Shown in pieces: positions 3,535 to 12,721 of a stretch of DNA of 34,355 bases. The notes beneath the pieces are model-generated. The model made no database searches. It was given only the letters and a program-made list of their open reading frames with translations, and had not been told where the DNA came from. The first letter of the stretch is position 1. Every line of letters starts with the position of its first letter. The DNA is from a virus. A program made the translations under genes and the position numbers. The stretch lies in the UHGV virus genome UHGV-2160239. One strand, 5' to 3'.

Positions 3535-3749
3535 ACAGAAGGCGAATCACACGCAGGCATCGCCGCACACACATGAATTCCTTACCGACGCTGAAAGAAC
3601 TCATTCAACACGAGATCGCTGATTTCTGCGCAACGCTGGGGTCGCCTGGCGAACCGGAAACACCAGAAGCGATGCAGCGCGAACTCATGATGCGCATCGA
3701 TAACGTTTTTGACTTTTTCCTGAATAACAAAAGAGAGCAATCAACATGA
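3531..3749 (+). CDS. Hypothetical small Arg-rich protein
   Basis: 72 aa; ATGA overlaps on both sides; alternative in-frame start at 3573. Confidence 0.45.
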   Translation: MNRRRITRRHRRTHMNSLPTLKELIQHEIADFCATLGSPGEPETPEAMQRELMMRIDNVFDFFLNNKREQST

Positions 3750-3949
3750 ACAAAAAGACCTGGTTTCGCGCATACATGTGGGCGCTGGTATGCGTCCTCG
3801 TCTCTCTCATTCTGTATGCAGGACTACTCCCCCGAATGATTTCATCAGACAGCTCCTTCCTGGTATTGCTGGGCATTTTCATTGCCATGCTGTACCCGGC
3901 AGGCGTTGTTCGCCTTTTCAGTAAGTACATCAAGGAAATCAAACAATGA
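3746..3949 (+). CDS. Small two-helix membrane protein (possible NfeD/YqiJ-like partner of the SPFH protein)
   Basis: 67 aa with two hydrophobic stretches (WALVCVLVSLILYAGLL and FLVLLGIFIAMLYPAGVV); ATGA overlap with the downstream SPFH gene. Confidence 0.55.
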   Translation: MNKKTWFRAYMWALVCVLVSLILYAGLLPRMISSDSSFLVLLGIFIAMLYPAGVVRLFSKYIKEIKQ

Positions 3950-4776
3950 AGAAACTCAAACTCTTTCAGATTATCCCGCTTTTTGCGGCCATCCTGTTGG
4001 TTGGTTGCGATCGCGTTGAGCCAGGTAATGTGGGCATCAAAGTCAACAAGCTGGGCGACGACAAAGGCGTCGGCGAAGTGGTTGGCGTTGGCCGCTACTG
4101 GACTGGCTGGAATACCGAGGTTTACATCTTCCCGACCTTCAAACAAATGAAGACCTACGATGAGCCGTTCAGTTTCCAGATGAGCGATGGCACAACCATC
4201 GGCTATCACATCGGCGTGGCCTACAAGGTTGATCCATCCAAAGTGACCACAGTGTTTCAGACCTACCGCAAAGGCGTGGATGACATTACCGACACTGACC
4301 TGCGCCAGAAGATCGCCGATGCACTCAACCGACTGGCCAGCAAAATGACCACCGATAAGTTTATCGACGGTGGCAAGTCTGAACTGCTGGATTCAGCACT
4401 TAAAGACATTCAGGCAGAAATGACACCTATCGGCATTCAGGTAATGAGCCTCTCTTATGTCGGTAAACCGGAATACCCACCAACCGTTATCGACAGCATT
4501 AATGCCAAAGTCACGGCAAACCAGAAAACTCTGCAACGCGAACAGGAAGTCAAGCAGCGCGAAGCAGAAGCCAACATGCTACGCGCAGAAGCAGCCGGAC
4601 AGGCTGATGCCATTCGCACAAAAGCCCAGGCTGAAGCCGACGCCATTCGTTTGCGCGGTGAAGCTCTGCGCCAGAACCCCGGCGTTATGGAGCTGGAAGC
4701 TATCAACAAATGGAACGGCACGCTGCCGCAATACATGACCAGTAATACCGCTGTTCCGTTTGTTCCGGTGAAGTAA
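3946..4776 (+). CDS. SPFH / band-7 (stomatin-prohibitin-flotillin-like) lipoprotein
   Basis: 276 aa; signal peptide with lipobox LLVGC; central SPFH-like region followed by an Ala/Glu/Arg-rich coiled coil (QREQEVKQREAEANMLRAEAAGQADAIRTKAQAEADAIRLRGEALRQ) typical of band-7 proteins. Confidence 0.8.
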   Translation: MKKLKLFQIIPLFAAILLVGCDRVEPGNVGIKVNKLGDDKGVGEVVGVGRYWTGWNTEVYIFPTFKQMKTYDEPFSFQMSDGTTIGYHIGVAYKVDPSKVTTVFQTYRKGVDDITDTDLRQKIADALNRLASKMTTDKFIDGGKSELLDSALKDIQAEMTPIGIQVMSLSYVGKPEYPPTVIDSINAKVTANQKTLQREQEVKQREAEANMLRAEAAGQADAIRTKAQAEADAIRLRGEALRQNPGVMELEAINKWNGTLPQYMTSNTAVPFVPVK

Positions 4777-4782
4777 TTAAAC

Positions 4783-4807
4783 CCGGCCAGTGGAAACCGC
4801 TGGCCGG
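4783..4807 (+). terminator. Stem-loop downstream of the SPFH gene (possible terminator)
   Basis: CCGGCCAG ... CTGGCCGG inverted repeat right after the stop codon; T-run is displaced about 14 nt, so termination efficiency is uncertain. Confidence 0.35.
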
Positions 4808-5143
4808 AGCAGCATCAGGATTTTTTAGTATGCCGTTCTCACAAAAAAACCGCTTGCCATGCCGCAATCAGTCAGGTTACATTTCCGCTGCACCTCATAA
4901 AACGGGTGCCGGGTTTCGCAGCCTGCTGACTAGCAAAGCGCACAACCGCGCCAGCGGTTTTTTTGTGCGTACTGTATTGCCACGTCTTTTTCGCACACGA
5001 ATTATGGCGGGGCGTACGGGGCCGACTTCGGTCGGGCCGGGTTCTTTGCTAGCCGGTACTGCGAACCTCGTACGTCTCGCCACCCACAGTTTCGCAGCTC
5101 TGGATGGTGAGTTTTCAAAACTTACTAGCAAAGAGGCCACACC

Positions 5144-5374
5144 ATGGCAAACCGCAAACAGCACCGCGCTATCGCGGAGCGTCGTCACATCCAGACTGAA
5201 ATCAACCGCAGACTTTCCCGCGCATCACGCGTCGCGCAAATCATGCACATCAATATGCTGCATGAGCGCAGCCACGCACTATCAAACATTTATTCCGCCT
5301 CTGTTTTCAGCTATCTGGCGGATGATCTGCGCGAGCTTCAGCAGCTCATCCAGCAGCAAAACCAACTCCATTAA
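5144..5374 (+). CDS. Hypothetical small protein upstream of A
   Basis: 76 aa; AGAGG RBS; basic, helical-looking sequence, possibly a regulator. Confidence 0.5.
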   Translation: MANRKQHRAIAERRHIQTEINRRLSRASRVAQIMHINMLHERSHALSNIYSASVFSYLADDLRELQQLIQQQNQLH

Positions 5375-5446
5375 TTCCTGTTCCGGGCCTTTCCTGCACC
5401 TTGCGGCGGGAGGCCTTCGCACATCTGTACTTTGACGGAGTTTGTG

Positions 5447-7753
5447 ATGAGTACCTCTCACTCATACCCGTGGAACGCGCCGGACTGGGACGTGGCAACA
5501 GCAAACGGCATCACGCCCGACGCTGCCGTCTCTGCCGTGCATGAAACCACCGAAACCACAAGCAACACAGCATTCGCCTACCTGACACCGGACGGCGAAC
5601 GCCGCGTGCTGGATATGAGCGACCTCCGCGCAGTCTGCCGCGAGTATCAGAAGGGGCTTCTGGAGCGCGAACGACAGGAAATCATCCGCCGCCGGAAACA
5701 TGAGGAGTGGCTGCGTCGCCGTCTGGCCACGCTGCCTTCATTCATCCGCACCACCTTCTCCAGAAAACTGGAAAAGATGGACAGAGAAACGCCGGAACGC
5801 GCTTACCACTGGCTTTGCGGAACGTTCGAGAAGCACGTTCTGCGCCGCGTGGATGTGGTAAATGAACAGTACGAACCGCAGACACCGTGGCCCGACATGC
5901 TGCTCCCTTTGCGCGACGCGTTTCACCGCCTGCCGTGGGCGGACAGGAAGAAAATGCGCCACCTCGCCTGGTTGCTGGCCTCCGTCATGACATCGGAATT
6001 CACACGCCGGTTTGATGACCAGTACGCGCTCACGGGCGATCTGGAATCATCCGTGGTGGACGCATACGGCTATATTGCAAGCCGCGCGACTTTTCTGAAC
6101 ATCTTCATCCCCGGTTGGCGGCATTATCAGGGTGAAAGTCTGACACCGGATGATGCACTCCGCTGTGTTTCCCGCCTCCAGTCGCAGAAGTGGTGGCTGG
6201 GAAAAATCCGGCGAATCCACGAATGCTGGCGCGAACATCTGTTGATTGCCACGGGGCACGTGAGCAAATACGCAGGCGCAAAATGCTCTGACGAGTGTCT
6301 CGCATCGTGGCGTGCGCAACGCAAGGCAAACCTTGAATGGATGTCGGCAATGGACCTGGAAAACGAGGATACGGGCGAGCGTATGCCGCTGCTCGACAAG
6401 GTGCTGGGCAGCGTTGCTAACCCGAAAATAGCCCGTCATGAACTCACCGTTCGTGCGGCTGGCTTTCAGGCGACCGCTGACGAGATGGGTTACGTCGCCA
6501 TGTTTTACACACTGACCGCCCCTTCCTCGTATCACTCAATGCGCGTCAAAGACGGAAAACGGAACGACAAATACAACGGGGCCAGTCCGCGTGCCACGCA
6601 GAAATATCTCTGTAAGGTCTGGAGCCGCGTTCGCGCCGCGTGGCGGCGTAAAGGCATCCGCACCTTTGGCATTCGCACCGCTGAGCCTCACCACGACGGA
6701 ACGCCGCACTGGCATCTCGTTCTCTGGTTCCACCCGGACGACACCGAAGAGGCCACACGCATATTCCGGGAGTATGCGCTGGCGGAAGACGGTGGTGAGT
6801 CGGGTGCTGACAAGTACCGCTTTGAAGCGGTCGAAGAGGACAAAACGCGCGGCCGCGCAATTGGCTACATCGTCAAATACATCTCCAAAAACATCGATGG
6901 CTACGGGCTGGATGGCGAAGCCGACCGCGAAACAGGAAAATCCCTGAAAGACGAAGCGCGACGCGTCAGGGCATGGGCTTCGCGCTGGCGTATTCGTCAG
7001 TTCCAGCAGATTGGGGGCGCACCTGTTTCGGTCTGGCGTGAACTGCGCCGACTGGGGGGGTGTGAACTGGTACTGCATCCACAGATTGAAGGCATTCGCG
7101 CCGCAGCAGATGAGGGGGACTGGCAGGCGTACACCATGCTTCAGGGTGGGCCTTTTGTGGAGCGTTGCGAACTGGTGGTTCGTCTCGCCTATGACAGACA
7201 GGAGGATGCCAACGCCTACGGCGACACAGTTTGCAAAATTGCAGGAGTCCGCGACATGACAATGCCGCCGGAAGACATGATTTTCACTCGCCTTAACACT
7301 TACAAAATTGTGCCAAAAGTCAGCAAAAACAATGACAAAGAACAAACAGAAGGCCGCGACGCGGCCCCTTGGAGTTCTGTCAATAACTGTACGCACAGAC
7401 GAAGCAGTGGTGAGCATGAAGGCGAGCATTCCGACAAAACACCACCGGAATCACCGCCGGAAACGGTGAAAAAAGCGCCGGAATCACCATCACAGACAGA
7501 AGAAGATAGCGCCAGTCTTAACCAAATCATCGGGCCGCTGGAGCGACTCGGCTTTACCGTGTCCCGCCACCTCGCAAAATCCGTTCTTGCGGGTGGCGTA
7601 GTGCGCTCAACCGACGGTGTTGTCGCCCGCTGGGACACATCATGTAACAGACTGGTGGTCACGCGCGCGAACGCGTCGCCGTCGCTGGTTGTTTCGAAGG
7701 TTTCCGAATACACCAGACGACTGAAATGGGCGCTGGCACGGAGGTCGCTGTGA
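5447..7753 (+). CDS. A: Replication initiation endonuclease (P2 gpA-like, HUH rolling-circle)
   Basis: About 768 aa from ATG 5447 (GGAG 6 nt upstream); HUH-type metal motif in TPHWHLVLWF and catalytic tyrosine motif GYIVKYISKNIDGY; size and position match P2 gene A. Confidence 0.9.
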   Translation: MSTSHSYPWNAPDWDVATANGITPDAAVSAVHETTETTSNTAFAYLTPDGERRVLDMSDLRAVCREYQKGLLERERQEIIRRRKHEEWLRRRLATLPSFIRTTFSRKLEKMDRETPERAYHWLCGTFEKHVLRRVDVVNEQYEPQTPWPDMLLPLRDAFHRLPWADRKKMRHLAWLLASVMTSEFTRRFDDQYALTGDLESSVVDAYGYIASRATFLNIFIPGWRHYQGESLTPDDALRCVSRLQSQKWWLGKIRRIHECWREHLLIATGHVSKYAGAKCSDECLASWRAQRKANLEWMSAMDLENEDTGERMPLLDKVLGSVANPKIARHELTVRAAGFQATADEMGYVAMFYTLTAPSSYHSMRVKDGKRNDKYNGASPRATQKYLCKVWSRVRAAWRRKGIRTFGIRTAEPHHDGTPHWHLVLWFHPDDTEEATRIFREYALAEDGGESGADKYRFEAVEEDKTRGRAIGYIVKYISKNIDGYGLDGEADRETGKSLKDEARRVRAWASRWRIRQFQQIGGAPVSVWRELRRLGGCELVLHPQIEGIRAAADEGDWQAYTMLQGGPFVERCELVVRLAYDRQEDANAYGDTVCKIAGVRDMTMPPEDMIFTRLNTYKIVPKVSKNNDKEQTEGRDAAPWSSVNNCTHRRSSGEHEGEHSDKTPPESPPETVKKAPESPSQTEEDSASLNQIIGPLERLGFTVSRHLAKSVLAGGVVRSTDGVVARWDTSCNRLVVTRANASPSLVVSKVSEYTRRLKWALARRSL

Positions 7754-8205
7754 GTACCAGCGCCACGCCGTCGTTTTTGCTCTCGCTCGACAATCCCGAC
7801 TGTTGCCGGGTTTTCGGGGGCGCTGTCACGCAACTGGAGCTTACGGGCTGCCGCCGCGCACCTGAGGTCGGCGACATTATCAAAGTCGAGTGGCTTTTTC
7901 TGGGGACTGTCGCGCAGTCGTTTCTGGTTGAGGTTGCCGGGGTTGAGCTCGTTTCCCCCGCCGTTCGCGGCGCTTATGTGGTGGTTCTTCGCTGGCCTGA
8001 ATCCAGTCACGACGGGGTACCCGCCCGTCCGCAGCTTGCTACCCCGCCCGCGCCCCCGCAATTACCCGCCAGCGCAAGTGCTGTCATTGATTGCTACAGA
8101 CAGGAATTGCAGGAAAAGAAGGCGGTGAAATTCCGCAGCAGCATCGCTGCCGCATGGCGAAAGGCCGAACTACTGCAACGAACGCATCAGACAGCTGGCA
8201 GTTGA
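7750..8205 (+). CDS. Hypothetical Pro-rich protein downstream of A
   Basis: Open frame in GC-rich DNA starting at GTG 7750 overlapping the A stop; long ORFs arise by chance in DNA this GC-rich. Confidence 0.3.
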   Translation: MSTSATPSFLLSLDNPDCCRVFGGAVTQLELTGCRRAPEVGDIIKVEWLFLGTVAQSFLVEVAGVELVSPAVRGAYVVVLRWPESSHDGVPARPQLATPPAPPQLPASASAVIDCYRQELQEKKAVKFRSSIAAAWRKAELLQRTHQTAGS

Positions 8206-8261
8206 GGGGGCAACGAATGAAAAGAATTAACGCCAACACGAAGGCGAAAAAACAGACAGAA

Positions 8262-8354
8262 ACGGGATTCACAAATCCCGTAAATGAGCAAAAAACGCGC
8301 CGCGATATATGAAGCGCGCATAAAACAGGCAAAAACGGGATTTCAGAATCCCGT
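8262..8354. promoter_or_regulatory. parC-like centromere / promoter with paired palindromic repeats
   Basis: Two near-identical 20-bp palindromes, ACGGGATTCACAAATCCCGT (8262-8281) and ACGGGATTTCAGAATCCCGT (8335-8354), each ACGGGATT/AATCCCGT around a 4-bp core, directly upstream of parM. Confidence 0.5.
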
Positions 8355-8388: not shown

Positions 8389-9348
8389 ATGAAAATTTGT
8401 ATCGACGACGGCTCCACCAACATCAAGCTGGCATGGACTGAGAACGGCGAACGCCGCAACGCCATCAGCCCGAACAGCTTCAAGTCGGAATGGTCTGCGC
8501 CGTTCGGTGGCACGCAGCCCGCGAACTACATGCTTGATGGCGTGCGCTATGGTTTTGATCCGGTTAGCGATCGCTTTGTCCAGACGACCGACACGCAATA
8601 CCAGTACAGCGATGTGAATGTCATTGCCATTCATCACGCGCTGGTCAAATCAGGCATCACACCACAGGAGGTGGATGTGGTTGTCACCCTTCCACTGAGC
8701 GAGTATTTCGACACAAACGCACAACCGGACATGGCCAACATCAACCGCAAAAAAGCGAACGTTATGCGCCCGGTGGAATACCAGAACGGCGAAGCATTCA
8801 CTATCCGCAACGTACGGGTTATGCCTGAATCCATTCCGGCTGGCTTTAAGGCACTGGCTGACATGAGTCCGTTTGAATCCCTGCTGATTGTGGATTTAGG
8901 CGGAACCACGCTGGATGTGGCAAAGGTTCAGGGACAACTGGCAGGTATCAGCCAGGTGTTTTGCGATCCACACGTAGGCGTTTCCCTGATAGCCGATGCC
9001 GTACTGTCGGTGATGGCCACTAACGGTATGCGTACCAGTCACCATATCGCCAATACCATCATCGAACATCGCCACGATGAAGTCTGGCTGCGCCAGCACA
9101 TCCACAATGACGCGCATTACGACAGCCTGATGGCGGTAATTCGTGAAAAGGAAGAAACACTGAAACAACGCGTGATCCGCGCGCTGGCGGGTTTTTCGGG
9201 TTACGGGCAGGTGATGGTTGTCGGTGGAGGGGCGGAGATTGTGGCACCCGCTATCCGCGAAGCCTGCGGAGTTAATGCGACTTTCATCGCGGACGGGGTG
9301 CCACAGTTTGCTCTGGTTAATGGGCTGTACGCAATGGACAAGGAGTAA
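8389..9348 (+). CDS. parM: Actin-like plasmid segregation ATPase ParM/StbA
   Basis: 319 aa; N-terminal IDDGSTNIKLAW phosphate-1 motif, YSDVNVIAIHHAL, VMPESIPAGF, LIVDLGGTTLDVA phosphate-2 and VMVVGGGAE adenosine motif, collinear with plasmid R1 ParM as I recall it. Confidence 0.9.
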   Translation: MKICIDDGSTNIKLAWTENGERRNAISPNSFKSEWSAPFGGTQPANYMLDGVRYGFDPVSDRFVQTTDTQYQYSDVNVIAIHHALVKSGITPQEVDVVVTLPLSEYFDTNAQPDMANINRKKANVMRPVEYQNGEAFTIRNVRVMPESIPAGFKALADMSPFESLLIVDLGGTTLDVAKVQGQLAGISQVFCDPHVGVSLIADAVLSVMATNGMRTSHHIANTIIEHRHDEVWLRQHIHNDAHYDSLMAVIREKEETLKQRVIRALAGFSGYGQVMVVGGGAEIVAPAIREACGVNATFIADGVPQFALVNGLYAMDKE

Positions 9349-9352
9349 ACCA

Positions 9353-9664
9353 ATGACGACTCCAACCAGACGGATAAGTTTCTATCTGAAGCCCGCCGTC
9401 GTCAAGAACGAAGGCGAAGCATGCGCCTGGCTGGACAGCCTTACACCAGAAGCCCGCAAAAGCGGCCAACGCGTGGCTTTTCTGGCCGGGCTGGCACTAC
9501 TGAAAATGAATCCGGCAGAGGCTTACCGACTGGCTGCATGGGCTGATGATGAGGCGTTATCAGTGACACAAATCAGGACAGAACGCCCCGCGTCACAGCC
9601 AGTATCAACCGCACAGATAACCAGTCAGATGGCCGGAAATATCCGGGCGTTATTTCCCGAATAA
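9353..9664 (+). CDS. parR: ParR-like centromere-binding adaptor
   Basis: 103 aa immediately after parM (AAGGAG RBS); RRISFYLKP ... LDSL ... AFLAGLALL parallels the R1 ParR N-terminal ribbon-helix-helix region RTIAFKLNP ... LDSI ... ALTAGLAL. Confidence 0.7.
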
Positions 9665-9726: not shown

Positions 9727-10062
9727 ATGCAACACATTGACAGAGAAAAAGCGCAGCGACTGATTGAGCGGATGGAAGCGCTGGCGAAAGAAGAAAATGT
9801 CAACATCCAAAAAATAGCTGAATGTGGACAGATAGTTCTTCGTCGTGAAAAAGACCTCAAACAACTGATGTTTGGCGAAACCAGTAAAACATGGACTTCA
9901 GGCGAGAAGACGGTTTATTGCAGTTTCTGCAATAAATCCCAGTACGAAGTCACAAAGGTGATTGCCGGACCGTCTGTTTACATCTGCAATGAGTGCGTGG
10001 ATTTGTTCAATGAAATTATCAGGAGAGAAGTGACAGGCCATGAAGAAAAAACGCATGAATGA
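9727..10062 (+). CDS. Standalone ClpX-type C4 zinc-finger domain protein
   Basis: 111 aa from ATG 9727 (AGGGG RBS); C-terminal [38 protein letters not shown] is collinear with the ClpX N-terminal zinc-binding domain (CxxC ... CxxC); N-terminal about 60 aa is a charged helical region. Confidence 0.7.
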
Positions 10063-10123: not shown

Positions 10124-10648
10124 ATGAAAAAATACGAATACATGCTGATGAAAGAAGCACTGCGGGTTGGTTTGGCTCCCTGTCCTGTATCCGTAGAAGC
10201 TGTTGTTGGGAACACGATTTTCCGAACGCTGCGAAATCGCGTATCCGTGAAAATGATTCACCAACCACCCAATTCTATCAGCATGATTTATCTGCCGCTG
10301 CCCGAGGCTATCAAACTTATGCGTTCGTTGAAATTTGCGATTTGGATGCAGACACAACTCAACAAAGCGGTGCAAAACACCTTCGTTAAGAAACTGATGC
10401 CGGAGCTTGCTGCCAGATGTGCAAAATGTACCAGACCCGCACTTCAATTTGATCTGTCATTGATTCAACAAGCTACGGAGGCAGAACTGTACCGCCTGTC
10501 ACCTCTCCGTGATGCTCACACGGAAGCCTCAGAAATGTTCCGGCTCATGTTTCAATTTAATTTTGCCGTTCGACGCACACGCGTTCAGGTCAATCGCATG
10601 ATGCAGGCGCAGGAAGAGCTGGCGCAACACAAAGGAGACAACCAGTGA
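10124..10648 (+). CDS. Hypothetical protein (174 aa), first gene of a coupled pair
   Basis: GAGGAAAA RBS; stop overlaps the GTG start of the next gene; no recognisable catalytic motif. Confidence 0.5.
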   Translation: MKKYEYMLMKEALRVGLAPCPVSVEAVVGNTIFRTLRNRVSVKMIHQPPNSISMIYLPLPEAIKLMRSLKFAIWMQTQLNKAVQNTFVKKLMPELAARCAKCTRPALQFDLSLIQQATEAELYRLSPLRDAHTEASEMFRLMFQFNFAVRRTRVQVNRMMQAQEELAQHKGDNQ

Positions 10649-11184
10649 GCAAGATTGACTATCAGGCACTACAAATGGCAGCAGAACGTGCAATTCCGGC
10701 AATGGAACGCCTGTTAATATTGCCAGTTGATGATGATTTGTTAAGCGAACAGGAACTTAAAGATTGCGGTGTGGATATTGACGCGATCAACACCTTCAGA
10801 CTTCTGGCTGGACCGGAAACCATGCTGGCACTGCTGGAACAACAGAAAGTCAAGGACAACCGAATCGCTGAACTGGAAAAAATCGTTACTGACTATGCAC
10901 TTAAATTCCAGAAAGCACAGGACGCATTAAAGTATGCCGCTTTGCTGCATAGCCGGACGGCGCAACAAACAAATAATTTTGCAGTATTGCTTCCGGACAT
11001 AAGCGAATATTTCATTAATGACGTATTTCAGCCCTTGCGATATGAGCGGGATGTTGAAAGAGCCATCATAAAGGCTGGCGGAAAAGCATTGTGGCAGGAG
11101 AAACAGGAGGACAGAACGCATCAGTCCTGCGATGTAAATCGCGGATGGTTTAGCCCACTGACGACAGATAAAAATAACACCTGA
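10645..11184 (+). CDS. Ead/Ea22-like family protein (tentative)
   Basis: 179 aa, GTG start with AAAGGAGA RBS; N-terminus MSKIDYQALQMAAERA and coiled-coil LALLEQQKVKDNRIAELEK resemble the lambdoid Ea22/Ead family as I recall it. Confidence 0.5.
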   Translation: MSKIDYQALQMAAERAIPAMERLLILPVDDDLLSEQELKDCGVDIDAINTFRLLAGPETMLALLEQQKVKDNRIAELEKIVTDYALKFQKAQDALKYAALLHSRTAQQTNNFAVLLPDISEYFINDVFQPLRYERDVERAIIKAGGKALWQEKQEDRTHQSCDVNRGWFSPLTTDKNNT

Positions 11185-11623
11185 TCCCCCTCAAACTAGG
11201 GCGATAATCGCGCATCGCCCTGCTGCACAATAGTGCACAAACTTGCACAATTTTTTTGAACGACTTTTTGCCCTTCCAGCCCCCGTGGCGGCTGGATCCG
11301 TCAAGGATCCGTGCGTGCACAAAAAAACGCGTTTTTTCTGCGCGCAGGTGACGGGGGAACAGCCCGCGTTTCAGGGGGTAAATAGCATTCCCTGAACGAT
11401 GTCGCAGCGACACAACAGAATGGCTGTATTTCTCACACTGAGCGTGAAAAAGGCGTGAGGGCTTTTGATTTGATGGGGTGACAGATAAGGCCGTCAAAAT
11501 CGCACTGAGGCGGCAGGAACATGCAGTCAACGCGGTGGGATTGCGTAAGAGCCTGACCGTCGATGATGGCGATAAGCTGGAAGACGTCGTGAAATTATCT
11601 GATTGATACAGGAGCTGGAGAGT

Positions 11624-11646
11624 CGGGGCATAAATTTTTTATGCCC
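11624..11646. terminator. Hairpin terminator downstream of portal gene Q
   Basis: GGGGCATAAA TTTTTTATGCCCC perfect inverted repeat with a central T/A run, just 3-prime of the Q stop on the minus strand; could act in both directions. Confidence 0.5.
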
Positions 11647-11674
11647 CGGCGAAGCAGCAGACAAGCGAAGCGCG

Positions 11675-12721
11675 TCAGGATGTGGGCTGGGTGTCCAGCA
11701 GTGCGTAAGGGTTAAAGCGGATCACCTCTTCGCCAAGCCAGTCATTGATATGCTTCATGGCCTCCATGACGGGCATCAGCTCGTTAATTGCGTAAACCCG
11801 CGCTGCCTTCTCCACATCACCAAACGCACTTTTTTCGCCCGGCATCGCCCCCATCAGTTGCGGCGGAACGCGGTGCGCAGCCAGCACATCATCACGGGAT
11901 GCCGCCTTAACATTCATGAACTCATCCTTTGCGGTGATCTGCTGGAACGGCAAAATTTGCACACCTTCTTTGCCCCCGTTGGGCGCGTGAATGAGCACGT
12001 TTTTAAATGCACCACCACCACGCGCACCCTGTAGCGTTTCCTTCAGGGAGTCCATGCTTTCGCGGTTTACCTGCGCTGCACCGATGTAGATGATGCACCC
12101 GGCGTGGGATCCATTGTCGTAGTACAGTTTTCTGAACATGTCCGCCGAATGAGACAGGCTGGCCGAGAGTAATGCGCCAAGATATTCCGGCATGCCGTAA
12201 ATTTCCTGGTTAATGTCCGGATTCATCAGGTGGCACACTTTGCCAGGGCGAAACTGAAACGCGTCGTTGCCATCCTGCACATACCACCATGATTCAAGAT
12301 CGCTTCCGCGCCGCATGTATTTCGCCAGTGCGTGCCGTAATTTAAGTGGTTCGCCGAGCATATTGCTCCGAAGCTCAAGGAATGCGTTACCGAACACAAA
12401 CCAGTCCAGCGCCAGCGCCGAGAAATCCTGCCGGGAAAGCAGCGGGTGCGGGATGTAGCAACCGAGTAATACATTGCGCTTAAAGTAAAGCGCAGACTGA
12501 TGCCAGGACGTTTGCCGGGCGGCTCTTGCCAGACCGTACCAGTCCACCGGGGTTTCATACCACCGCCCGTTATCAGCACAGTACATATTGTCCAGCAGGT
12601 CATGCCCGGTCAGGCGGTAAGGACCATCAAATGTGAATGCACTGAGCGACGATTCTTTCCTGAGCGCATCAGCGAGATCAATGCGTGAACTCATGCGCAC
12701 TTTTTTATTTTTTCTGCTCAT
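11675..12721 (-). CDS. Q: Portal protein (P2 gpQ-like)
   Basis: 348 aa; start overlaps the terminase stop; divergent from the capsid operon exactly as P2 Q-P; size matches gpQ. Confidence 0.85.
   Translation of the reverse strand: MSRKNKKVRMSSRIDLADALRKESSLSAFTFDGPYRLTGHDLLDNMYCADNGRWYETPVDWYGLARAARQTSWHQSALYFKRNVLLGCYIPHPLLSRQDFSALALDWFVFGNAFLELRSNMLGEPLKLRHALAKYMRRGSDLESWWYVQDGNDAFQFRPGKVCHLMNPDINQEIYGMPEYLGALLSASLSHSADMFRKLYYDNGSHAGCIIYIGAAQVNRESMDSLKETLQGARGGGAFKNVLIHAPNGGKEGVQILPFQQITAKDEFMNVKAASRDDVLAAHRVPPQLMGAMPGEKSAFGDVEKAARVYAINELMPVMEAMKHINDWLGEEVIRFNPYALLDTQPTS

What the first reader, a model, noticed from the sequence alone, without database searches (positions are those of the whole stretch)
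10124..11184. Translationally coupled pair of uncharacterised genes (174 aa plus Ea22-like 179 aa) at the cos-proximal end of the accessory island
Two plus-strand genes with good RBSs whose stop and start overlap (10645-10648), sitting between the conserved A gene and cos, where P2 carries tin/old. The first has no recognisable motif; the second resembles the Ead/Ea22 family by its N-terminus and a KDNRIAELEK coiled coil. A cargo pair of this kind in a known moron slot is a plausible uncharacterised superinfection-exclusion or anti-phage module.
Basis: partly seen in the sequence, partly recalled or inferred. Interest (0 to 1): 0.65.

Follow-up and report, generated by a model that had tools for sequence, protein, structure and literature searches.

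The report
Orphan gene welded to Ea22 cassette
Two real cargo genes in the variable "defence hotspot" of a P2-like E. coli prophage do overlap stop-to-start, but that overlap is a portable joint shared with unrelated lambdoid-phage genes, so it does not show that they work together, and what either gene does is untested.

Summary
ORF174 (10124-10648) and a GTG-started Ead/Ea22-family gene (10645-11184) overlap in GTGA, each has a Shine-Dalgarno, and they lie between gpA and portal Q of a P88-like (Xuanwuvirus) prophage, the slot where P2 carries tin/old.

ORF174 is a real gene (dN/dS about 0.2-0.3 down to 45% identity) and nearly an orphan: 3 representatives among 1.84 billion proteins, no family, fold or defence-model match, 29 of 5426 complete E. 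coli genomes, no deposited phage.

The "coupled module" reading is weakened. The about 45-nt junction (last codons ...KGGNQ*, SD, GTGA, MSKIDYQAL) is near-identical downstream of unrelated genes in at least 119 viral contigs, most often Oad2 (HK446 gp27), reported as an anti-OLD protein. ORF174 shows no homology to Oad2 (hhalign 0.9%). Near-identical ORF174 copies are joined to three Ea22 N-domain types and, in four records, to a 28-aa stub. The same Ea22 C-terminus occurs in 162 genomes, mostly without ORF174.

Best reading: two independently shuffled accessory cassettes. ORF174 probably acts alone as a small basic binding protein in phage-phage or phage-host conflict, direction unresolved. 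The arrangement was already catalogued, untested, by Rousset et al. 2022. Moderate-low interest.

The parts
10124..10648 (+). ORF174: orphan protein-coding gene, 174 aa, pI 9.96, 20.2 kDa. Conserved motifs G-x-APCP, IYLPLPEA, KAV..TF, VRRTRV. The last five codons (KGDNQ*) belong to the portable joint.
   Evidence: 3 representatives in 1.84 billion; dN/dS 0.2-0.3; pI; AF2 pLDDT 49: three short strands then four helices; no family, PDB or viral fold match
10631..10675 (+). Portable joint: AAAGGAGACAACCA-GTGA-GCAAGATTGACTATCAGGCACT. It holds the SD and GTG start of the Ea22 gene plus the stop of whatever gene lies upstream. It is the 5' boundary of Ea22-type cassettes.
   Evidence: Near-identical downstream of HK446 gp27/Oad2. 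Pattern found in at least 119 IMG/VR contigs downstream of four unrelated families, or of no ORF in that frame. Stx-phage homology to the window starts at about 10631.
10645..11184 (+). Ead/Ea22-family gene, 179 aa, pI 4.93. N-terminal helical domain (res 1-55, pI 4.1), coiled-coil helix (res 57-106), small low-confidence alpha/beta CTD (about res 107-153), disordered tail (res 154-179).
   Evidence: PF13935; 2624 homologues; mosaic alignment; AF2 pLDDT 70.6; no PDB match by sequence or fold
9727..10062 (+). Stand-alone ClpX-type C4 zinc-finger protein (111 aa from ATG 9727; ORF open from 9691). A frequent but dispensable upstream neighbour of ORF174.
   Evidence: PF06689 1.5e-17; phrog_6797; kept upstream of divergent ORF174 homologues; absent; pseudogenised; 112 genomes, mostly with other downstream cargo
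8389..9664 (+). parM (8389-9348) and stbB (9353-9664) partition module. It forms the left, conserved part of the P88-type hotspot, and the variable slot starts at the stbB stop.
   Evidence: 740 genomes at 80% coverage or more
11198..11255 (+). Right boundary of the variable slot: hairpin 11198-11221, three TGCACAA motifs, and a terminator-like stem 11233-11248 followed by a T-run. Sequence is invariant across cargo variants from about 11224 onward.
   Evidence: (alignment)

Best explanation
The locus is a mosaic string of independently exchangeable accessory cassettes (ClpX-ZnF gene, ORF174, Ea22-like gene) in the gpA-gpQ hotspot of a P88-like prophage. It is not an obligate two-gene system.

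The stop/start overlap belongs to the 5' boundary of Ea22-type cassettes. This is a joint of about 45 nt: the SD, GTGA, and codons for MSKIDYQAL. Homologous recombination welds whatever gene lies upstream onto it, which gives unrelated proteins the same ...KGGNQ* tail (shown).

ORF174 is a genuine, rare, orphan gene. It occupies the position that in lambdoid phages is usually held by the EaE/Oad2 family, of which HK446 gp27 is a reported anti-OLD inhibitor. ORF174 is not homologous to that family (shown).

Inferred: ORF174 works on its own. It has no enzyme signature and is basic and largely helical, so it most likely acts by stoichiometric binding to a protein or nucleic-acid target in inter-phage or phage-host conflict. 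That would be either Tin-like exclusion of a competitor or Oad2-like neutralisation of a host or prophage immunity factor. I lean slightly to a conflict role over a housekeeping one, and I cannot resolve the direction.

Inferred by analogy: the Ea22-like protein is a coiled-coil oligomer presenting swappable N- and C-terminal domains. By analogy with lambda and Stx-phage Ea22, it modulates the lysis-lysogeny or induction outcome through an unknown partner.

Approximate sub-confidences: portable joint and non-obligate pairing 0.8; ORF174 acts alone 0.6; conflict role of either sign 0.5.
For: Joint: the HK446 gp27 3' end is CAAAGGAGGCAACCAGTGAGCAAGATTGACTATCAGGCACT against the window's CAAAGGAGACAACCAGTGAGCAAGATTGACTATCAGGCACT, followed in HK446 by a 20-codon Ea22 stub. 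The pattern occurs in at least 119 viral contigs. The upstream ORF in the KGGNQ* frame is Oad2-like in 53-54 loci, a 79-aa family in 11, a 55-66-aa family, ORF174 in 9, and absent in 27.

No homology between ORF174 and Oad2: BLASTP E=3.3; hhalign probability 0.9%, tail only, and 0% after trimming the tail.

Independence: ORF174 is intact with a 28-aa Ea22 stub in CDE6306, DSM 103246, L037 and L049, and with a 38-aa stub in L010. It is joined to Ea22 N-domain type 1, the Zn-ribbon type and other types. The Ea22 CTD is in 162 genomes against 29 for ORF174, and a lone 196-aa Ea22 follows stbB directly in O26:H11 11368 and M10.

Real gene: dN/dS 0.18-0.34. Orphan. Acquired cargo: GC 43-47% against 53-60% for the backbone. 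No plus-strand sigma-70 consensus between gpA and the terminator-like site at 11233-11255, consistent with read-through from upstream (this is a weak test).

Precedents: Oad2 binds and inhibits OLD and can be fused to EaD/Ea22 (bioRxiv 10.64898/2026.07.10.737580). Lambda Ea22 is a tetrameric, pro-lysogenic, three-part protein with variable CTDs (PMC10834534 and PMC7093339). Unknown cargo from this hotspot is often anti-phage: 3 of 8 systems tested (PMC9122126).
Against: The ORF174-to-Ea22-start adjacency holds in all 10 independently found loci, down to 45% identity. That could reflect selection for co-expression rather than recombination history alone. The opposite charges (pI 9.96 against 4.93, N-domain 4.1) would suit a complex. 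Divergent lineages keep ClpX-ZnF, ORF174 and Ea22 in order, which hints at a functional unit. No complex prediction or experiment was possible. The ORF174 model is poor (pLDDT 49), so 'no enzyme fold' is weak. The promoter scan is a crude consensus. Recognisable anti-defence genes are rare in P2-like phages (28 of 1511; PMC13586616), so positional analogy to Oad2 is only a lead.
Confidence: 0.5

Rival explanations
1. One reading: ORF174 and the Ea22-like protein form a two-gene anti-phage or superinfection-exclusion module expressed from the prophage. One partner senses infection and the other acts as effector.
For: Location in the validated gpA-gpQ defence hotspot, where 3 of 8 unknown systems tested were active. 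Known defence is found in 49% of P2-like elements. Coupling is conserved in all loci. The charges are opposite. ORF174 is under purifying selection.
Against: No PADLOC hit. No effector-type domain such as a nuclease, ATPase, TM segment, TIR or SIR2. The Ea22 partner is truncated in at least 5 records while ORF174 is intact. The partner's N-domain is interchangeable. The Ea22 gene occurs mostly without ORF174. The coupling joint is generic. No promoter was detected for lysogenic expression.
Confidence: 0.15
2. The functional unit is the three-gene set ClpX-ZnF, ORF174 and Ea22. For example, the free ClpX zinc-binding domain acts as a decoy that diverts ClpX adaptors or substrates, with ORF174 and Ea22 as co-factors. 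This would affect a competitor phage (Mu and lambda O depend on ClpX recognition; own knowledge) or the prophage's own induction.
For: The order ClpX-ZnF, ORF174, Ea22 is retained in divergent lineages with ORF174 at 58-79% identity (L007, L008, L009, L011). The ClpX-ZnF gene is intact in the window with all four Cys present.
Against: ClpX-ZnF is absent from roughly half or more of the ORF174 loci (6 of 9 IMG/VR loci). It is frameshifted in ET358 and carries an internal stop in CDE6306. It occurs in 112 genomes, mostly with other downstream cargo. The most divergent ORF174 locus lacks it.
Confidence: 0.1
3. The genes serve the phage's own life cycle rather than conflict. Like the lambda exo-xis proteins, the Ea22-like protein (with ORF174 as a DNA- or RNA-binding regulator) tunes lysogenisation, induction or replication/partition of the P88-like element.
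For: Ea22 of lambda and Stx phages is pro-lysogenic. The genes are co-oriented with gpA-parM-stbB and no intervening promoter or terminator was detected. ORF174 is basic, with a conserved VRRTRV helix.
Against: ORF174 is present in only about 4% of P88-type hotspots (29 against 740 genomes), and the slot is freely swapped for TA toxins and other cargo. So it is not part of core regulation. The CTD is unrelated to the lambda Ea22 CTD.
Confidence: 0.15
4. A toxin-antitoxin or addiction pair, with basic ORF174 as toxin neutralised by the acidic Ea22-like protein.
For: Opposite pI values; a two-gene overlap; TA cassettes (YafO) do occupy the same slot.
Against: ORF174 persists intact where the Ea22 gene is reduced to a 28-38-aa stub. 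The gene order is atypical for type II TA systems. There is no TA family hit. Ea22 is abundant without ORF174.
Confidence: 0.05

Closest known systems
Lambda / Stx-phage Ea22 and P22 Ead (Pfam PF13935, Ead_Ea22)
   Same: ORF179 matches PF13935 well above threshold. It has the same three-part plan: a conserved MSxIxYQALR start and N-region, a long coiled coil, and a swappable CTD. The family is very mosaic.
   Different: It sits in a P2-like gpA-gpQ hotspot, not the pL-driven exo-xis region of a lambdoid phage. Its CTD has no sequence or fold match to anything in the PDB copies searched, and lambda Ea22's CTD was not among the hits. A pro-lysogenic function has not been tested.
Oad2 (HK446 gp27; EaE-like anti-OLD protein) and the eaE-ead gene pair of lambdoid phages
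   Same: ORF174 has the same position immediately upstream of an Ea22-type start, the same size (174 against 175 aa), the same KGGNQ* tail and the same near-identical 45-nt joint.
   Different: There is no detectable homology outside the 5-residue tail (BLASTP E=3.3; hhalign 0.9%, then 0% after trimming). Oad2 has only been seen here in non-P88 contexts. Anti-OLD activity of ORF174 is untested.
P2 tin / old, the classical cargo of the same hotspot
   Same: The same gpA-gpQ, cos-proximal slot. Tin is likewise a single protein with no informative domain that excludes T-even phages (own knowledge for Tin's mechanism).
   Different: There is no sequence similarity to Old or Tin models (PADLOC negative). 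The cargo here is co-oriented with the early genes and preceded by a partition module.
[quoted passage not shown] 2022, Table S5A
   Same: It is the same locus type. The table lists WP_033555709 (the ORF174 of APEC37-type loci) and WP_000759757 (the CDE6306-type allele).
   Different: The arrangement is only catalogued. Neither protein sequence is among the systems cloned and tested, as far as the stored supplements show.

Membership tests
Ead/Ea22 family (PF13935) | Pfam PF13935 match above the gathering score | tested here: met
   66.5 bits against a cut-off of 27, E=4.7e-18, residues 2-123; 2624 homologues, most annotated ead/Ea22-like
Ead/Ea22 family (PF13935) | Three-part architecture: short N-region, central coiled coil, separate CTD | tested here: met
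   AF2: helices 6-54, one helix 57-106 (pLDDT about 91), small alpha/beta unit 113-150, disordered tail; module boundaries are visible in the alignment
Lambda-type Ea22 (functional prototype) | CTD homologous to the solved lambda Ea22 CTD | tested here: not met
   phmmer against PDB sequences gave 0 hits at E<=1; Foldseek against PDB had a best E of 0.7 and no Ea22 entry. The CTD model is low confidence.
Lambda-type Ea22 (functional prototype) | Encoded in the exo-xis / early-left region of a lambdoid phage | tested here: not met
   It lies between stbB and portal Q of a P88-like prophage
Lambda-type Ea22 (functional prototype) | Pro-lysogenic phenotype; tetrameric | not testable with these tools
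   Needs deletion and lysogenisation assays and SEC-MALS
Oad2 / EaE family (anti-OLD) | Sequence homology to HK446 gp27 | tested here: not met
   BLASTP E=3.3; hhalign family against family 0.9%, and 0% without the tail
Oad2 / EaE family (anti-OLD) | Position directly upstream of an Ea22-type start, sharing the joint | tested here: met
Oad2 / EaE family (anti-OLD) | Binds and inhibits OLD | not testable with these tools
   Needs rescue of OLD toxicity in a recB deletion strain and pull-down, as in bioRxiv 10.64898/2026.07.10.737580
Known anti-phage defence systems (PADLOC-DB v2) | Match of any component to a defence-system HMM | tested here: not met
   0 families for ORF174, ORF179 and ClpX-ZnF at E<=1
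Obligate two-gene module (operational definition) | Reciprocal co-occurrence of both intact genes | tested here: not met
   ORF174 is always followed by an Ea22 start (10 of 10 loci). But the Ea22 body is truncated in at least 5 records, and the Ea22 CTD is present in 162 genomes against 29 for ORF174.
Obligate two-gene module (operational definition) | Partner specificity (the same partner type across lineages) | tested here: not met
   At least four Ea22 N-domain types are joined to ORF174
Type II toxin-antitoxin | Match to a TA family, and retention of the antitoxin wherever the toxin is intact | tested here: not met
   No Pfam, NCBIfam or PADLOC TA hit; either gene occurs without an intact partner

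The most novel reading that the evidence does not exclude
ORF174 founds a new family of single-protein inter-phage conflict factors: an Oad2-like immunity inhibitor or a Tin-like exclusion protein. The KGGNQ*/GTGA/MSKIDYQAL joint is then a dedicated cassette-exchange site. It lets unrelated effector genes be swapped in front of a conserved Ea22 'docking' gene, across lambdoid and P2-like phages. That would make 'the gene upstream of Ea22' a guilt-by-position marker for finding new defence or counter-defence proteins.
Probability: 0.2. Interest if true: 0.6.

Novelty: new member of a known kind. Interest (0 to 1): 0.33.

Why it matters
If ORF174 turns out to be a conflict protein, it adds one more orphan effector to the P2 hotspot repertoire. 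The more useful result is the shared joint. It explains why stop/start overlap next to Ea22-family genes should not be read as functional coupling. It also suggests a cheap positional handle, the gene welded to the Ea22 5' joint, for mining lambdoid and P2-like prophages for fast-evolving accessory proteins. One family at that position, Oad2, is already a reported immunity inhibitor. As it stands, this is an ordinary, already-catalogued hotspot arrangement with unknown function.

Tried and rejected
1. Remote homology for ORF174. Pfam, PHROGs, NCBIfam and PADLOC, the word-indexed search of 5.8 billion proteins, a full HMM search of 1.84 billion representatives and a PDB profile search at E<=10 found nothing beyond its own narrow family.
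2. Structure of ORF174. AF2 on a 6-sequence alignment gave pLDDT 49. Foldseek against BFVD found nothing at E<=0.001. The afdb50 library was unavailable.
3. Ea22-like structure against the PDB gave no hit.
4. I suspected gpA was frameshifted (773 against 946 aa). This was rejected: it is a different allele of normal P2 size (31% identity), with a 63-nt remnant of the P88-type gpA 3' end at 8247-8309.
5. Homology between Oad2 and ORF174, suggested by equal length and tail, was rejected.
6. A P2 cos consensus was not found. The only Rfam hit was sub-threshold. A structured RNA in the spacer upstream of ORF174 was not significant, z=0.33.
7. No plus-strand sigma-70 promoter was found, but the scan is too crude to settle expression timing.
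8. Literature: no paper ties Ea22-family or ClpX-ZnF phage proteins to a defence system.
9. I could not model an ORF174:Ea22 complex because the structure jobs were exhausted and only monomers are supported.
Full report
**Observation.** The two ORFs are where the finding says. ORF174 runs 10124-10648 (+), ATG start, 174 aa. The second ORF runs 10645-11184 (+), GTG start, 179 aa. The stop of the first and the start of the second overlap as GTGA at 10645-10648. GAGG lies 8 nt before the ATG, and AAGGAG lies 7 nt before the GTG. The second protein matches Pfam PF13935 (Ead_Ea22) at 66.5 bits against a cut-off of 27, over residues 2-123. ORF174 matches nothing in Pfam, PHROGs, NCBIfam or PADLOC.

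**Setting.** The window is a P88-like (Xuanwuvirus, P2-related) E. coli prophage. The gene order is:
- gpA, 5432-7753
- parM, 8389-9348
- stbB, 9353-9664
- a stand-alone ClpX-type zinc-finger gene, 9727-10062
- ORF174
- the Ea22-like gene
- about 490 nt of non-coding sequence
- portal Q, 11675-12721 (-), and then terminase

Rousset et al. 2022 define this gpA-gpQ interval as the cos-proximal hotspot that holds old and tin in P2. About a quarter of P2-like phages carry a partition system there, and 3 of 8 unknown systems they cloned from it were anti-phage (PMC9122126). So the island holds more than the pair. The cargo has 43-47% GC against 53-60% for the backbone.

**ORF174 is real but nearly an orphan.**
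- The word-indexed search of 5.8 billion proteins finds 8 clusters.
- An exhaustive HMM search of 1.84 billion representatives finds 3.
- There is no PDB sequence match at E<=10.
- The AF2 model is poor, with pLDDT 49: three short strands followed by four helices. It has no significant viral fold match.
- Against homologues of 79, 72, 58 and 45% identity, dN/dS is 0.19-0.29, so the reading frame is under purifying selection.
- The protein is basic (pI 9.96). The Ea22-like protein is acidic (pI 4.93, N-domain 4.14).
- ORF174 is in 29 of 5426 complete E. coli genomes, always on the chromosome. It is in none of 50,697 deposited phage records by tblastn and in one Salmonella plasmid record.
- For scale, the parM-stbB backbone is in 740 genomes at 80% coverage or more, the ClpX-ZnF gene in 112, and the C-terminal half of this Ea22-like gene in 162.

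**Co-occurrence is one-sided.** In all ten independently found loci, ORF174 is followed at once by an Ea22-type start. These are the window, ET358, APEC37, CDE6306, DSM 103246, P13-6, two metagenome contigs with P0005, the contig with P0008, and the contig with P0129 at 45% identity. The overlap is GTGA, ATGA or TAATG. But the body of the Ea22 gene is not conserved with it:
- In CDE6306 and DSM 103246 it stops after 28 codons. A 197-aa gene plus a YafO toxin follow.
- Two IMG/VR contigs show the same 28-aa stub.
- In L010 it stops after 38 codons.
- Near-identical ORF174 copies are joined to the AERAIPAMERLL N-domain, to a Zn-ribbon N-domain, and, in L007, to a 99-aa form with no CTD.
- Conversely, in the two loci inspected (O26:H11 11368 and M10), the same coiled coil and CTD occur in a lone 196-aa Ea22 gene directly after stbB, with its own ATG and SD. 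At most 29 of the 162 genomes that carry this CTD can also carry ORF174.

**The junction is portable.** A 2026 preprint reports that HK446 gp27, named Oad2 and EaE-like, binds and inhibits the P2 OLD nuclease. It notes that Oad2 is sometimes fused to EaD/Ea22 proteins (bioRxiv 10.64898/2026.07.10.737580). I fetched HK446. gp27 is 175 aa and ends ...RKGGNQ*, whereas ORF174 ends ...HKGDNQ* and its homologues end KGGNQ*. The DNA at its 3' end is CAAAGGAGGCAACCAGTGAGCAAGATTGACTATCAGGCACT. The window has CAAAGGAGACAACCAGTGAGCAAGATTGACTATCAGGCACT. In HK446 a 20-codon Ea22 stub follows. In one search, the Stx-phage matches to the window begin at about 10631, which is the same point.

The upstream ORF that reads through the joint was distributed as follows:
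- Oad2-like, 50-57% identical to gp27, in 53-54 loci
- an unrelated 79-aa family in 11 loci
- a 55-66-aa family
- ORF174 in 9 loci
- no ORF of 30 aa or more in that frame in 27 loci

Eight of the nine ORF174 loci have ParM, StbB or portal nearby. None of the other loci does. ORF174 and Oad2 are not homologous. BLASTP gives E=3.3. Family-against-family hhalign gives 0.9% probability on the five tail residues only, and 0% after trimming the tail. So the SD, the overlapping start, and the last five codons of the upstream gene all belong to the 5' boundary of Ea22-type cassettes. Different genes have been welded to that boundary by recombination. The overlap is real, but it does not show that the two products work together.

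**The Ea22-like protein.** It has 2624 homologues. The alignment shows a constant MSxIxYQALR start, four or five alternative N-domains, a shared coiled coil (RIAELEKIATDYALKFQKAQDALKYA), and interchangeable CTDs. AF2 (pLDDT 70.6) gives an N-terminal helical domain, one helix spanning 57-106, a small low-confidence alpha/beta unit and a disordered tail. Nothing in the PDB matches by sequence or fold, and lambda Ea22's CTD is not among the hits. Lambda and Stx-phage Ea22 are early, tetrameric and pro-lysogenic, with CTDs that differ between phages and an unknown partner (PMC10834534, PMC7093339).

**The ClpX-ZnF neighbour.** Divergent ORF174 lineages keep it directly upstream. But it is missing from roughly half or more of the E. 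coli and IMG/VR ORF174 loci. It is frameshifted in ET358 and carries an internal stop in CDE6306. In most of its 112 genomes it is followed by other cargo. It behaves as a third independent cassette.

**Expression signals.** No plus-strand sigma-70 consensus was found between 7600 and 11800. A terminator-like stem with a T-run lies at 11233-11255, just after the Ea22 stop, at the conserved right edge of the slot. This fits co-transcription from upstream, but the scan is crude. No Rfam family or significant spacer structure was found.

[quoted passage not shown]' (with WP_000759757) in Table S5A. Neither protein sequence appears among the cloned systems in the stored supplements. In P2-like elements, recognisable defence systems occur in 49% and recognisable anti-defence genes in only 28 of 1511 (PMC13586616).

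**Interpretation.**
- Shown: both genes are real; the overlap is real; the joint is generic; the pairing is not reciprocal or partner-specific; ORF174 is an orphan at the Oad2 position and is not homologous to Oad2.
- Inferred: ORF174 acts alone, by binding rather than catalysis, most likely in phage-phage or phage-host conflict. The two precedents point in opposite directions: Tin at this locus excludes competitors, while Oad2 at this position inhibits immunity. I cannot resolve the direction.
- Inferred by analogy: the Ea22-like protein is a coiled-coil scaffold that modulates the lysis-lysogeny outcome.

Overall this is an ordinary, already-catalogued hotspot cargo arrangement. Its one useful by-product is the portable Ea22 joint as a positional marker.

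Noticed in passing
window 5432-8312: The gpA replication gene (5432-7753, 773 aa) is a different allele from P88-type gpA (946 aa): 31% identity over residues 102-731. P88-like homology resumes at 8247 with a 63-nt remnant of the P88-type gpA 3' end, and both flanks (4800-5430 and 8247 onward) are P88-like. The replication module seems to have been swapped. The 7754-8246 stretch (about 61% GC) has no match in relatives and holds only doubtful ORFs.
   Followed up: partly
window 8262-8281 and 8335-8354: Two near-identical inverted repeats (ACGGGATT-N4-AATCCCGT), 73 nt apart, lie just upstream of parM. They are candidate centromere (parC) or operator sites for the StbB/ParR-like protein. The scan flagged them only as minus-strand terminator-like sites.
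   Followed up: no
window 9727-10062: A stand-alone protein made of a helical N-region plus a ClpX-type C4 zinc-binding domain (PF06689, phrog_6797, function unknown). It is present in 112 complete E. coli genomes with varied downstream cargo, and is often pseudogenised next to ORF174. It could act as a decoy for ClpX adaptors or substrates; nothing has been published on it.
   Followed up: partly
window 11198-11255: A hairpin is followed by three TGCACAA motifs at a spacing of about 10 nt, then a terminator-like stem and T-run. The sequence is invariant across all cargo variants and marks the right edge of the variable slot. It may be a protein-binding or recombination boundary.
   Followed up: partly
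L004 (CDE6306) 3900-5059; L012 (DSM 103246) 4022-5181: The Ea22 body is replaced, after 28 codons, by a 197-aa hypothetical gene plus a YafO-family toxin gene. ORF174 stays intact. This is an example of cassette replacement at the joint.
   Followed up: partly
L005 (O26:H11 11368) 3695-4285: A lone 196-aa Ea22-like gene whose N-domain carries a CPICGEE...C Zn-ribbon-like motif, joined to the same coiled coil and CTD as in the window. This is the commonest carrier of that CTD.
   Followed up: no
IMG/VR loci L017-L135: Besides Oad2-like genes, two small unrelated families (79 aa; 55-66 aa) also end in KGG(N/S)Q* at the Ea22 joint. Some upstream proteins themselves begin with an Ea22-type N-terminus, so they may be tandem or fused forms. 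None has a known function.
   Followed up: no
window 11624-11648: A perfect 11-bp hairpin (CGGGGCATAAA TTT TTTATGCCCCG), flanked by T/A runs, lies just downstream of portal gene Q and is probably its terminator. It gives a sub-threshold Rfam 'gyrA RNA' hit (22 bits against a cut-off of 45), which is almost certainly chance.
   Followed up: no
NZ_CP110658.1 (Salmonella enterica, 272-kb record in PLSDB) 118843-119364: This is the only plasmid-collection record with ORF174 (96.6% identity) next to an Ea22-like gene. It could be a P88-like element on a large plasmid or a mis-assigned replicon.
   Followed up: no
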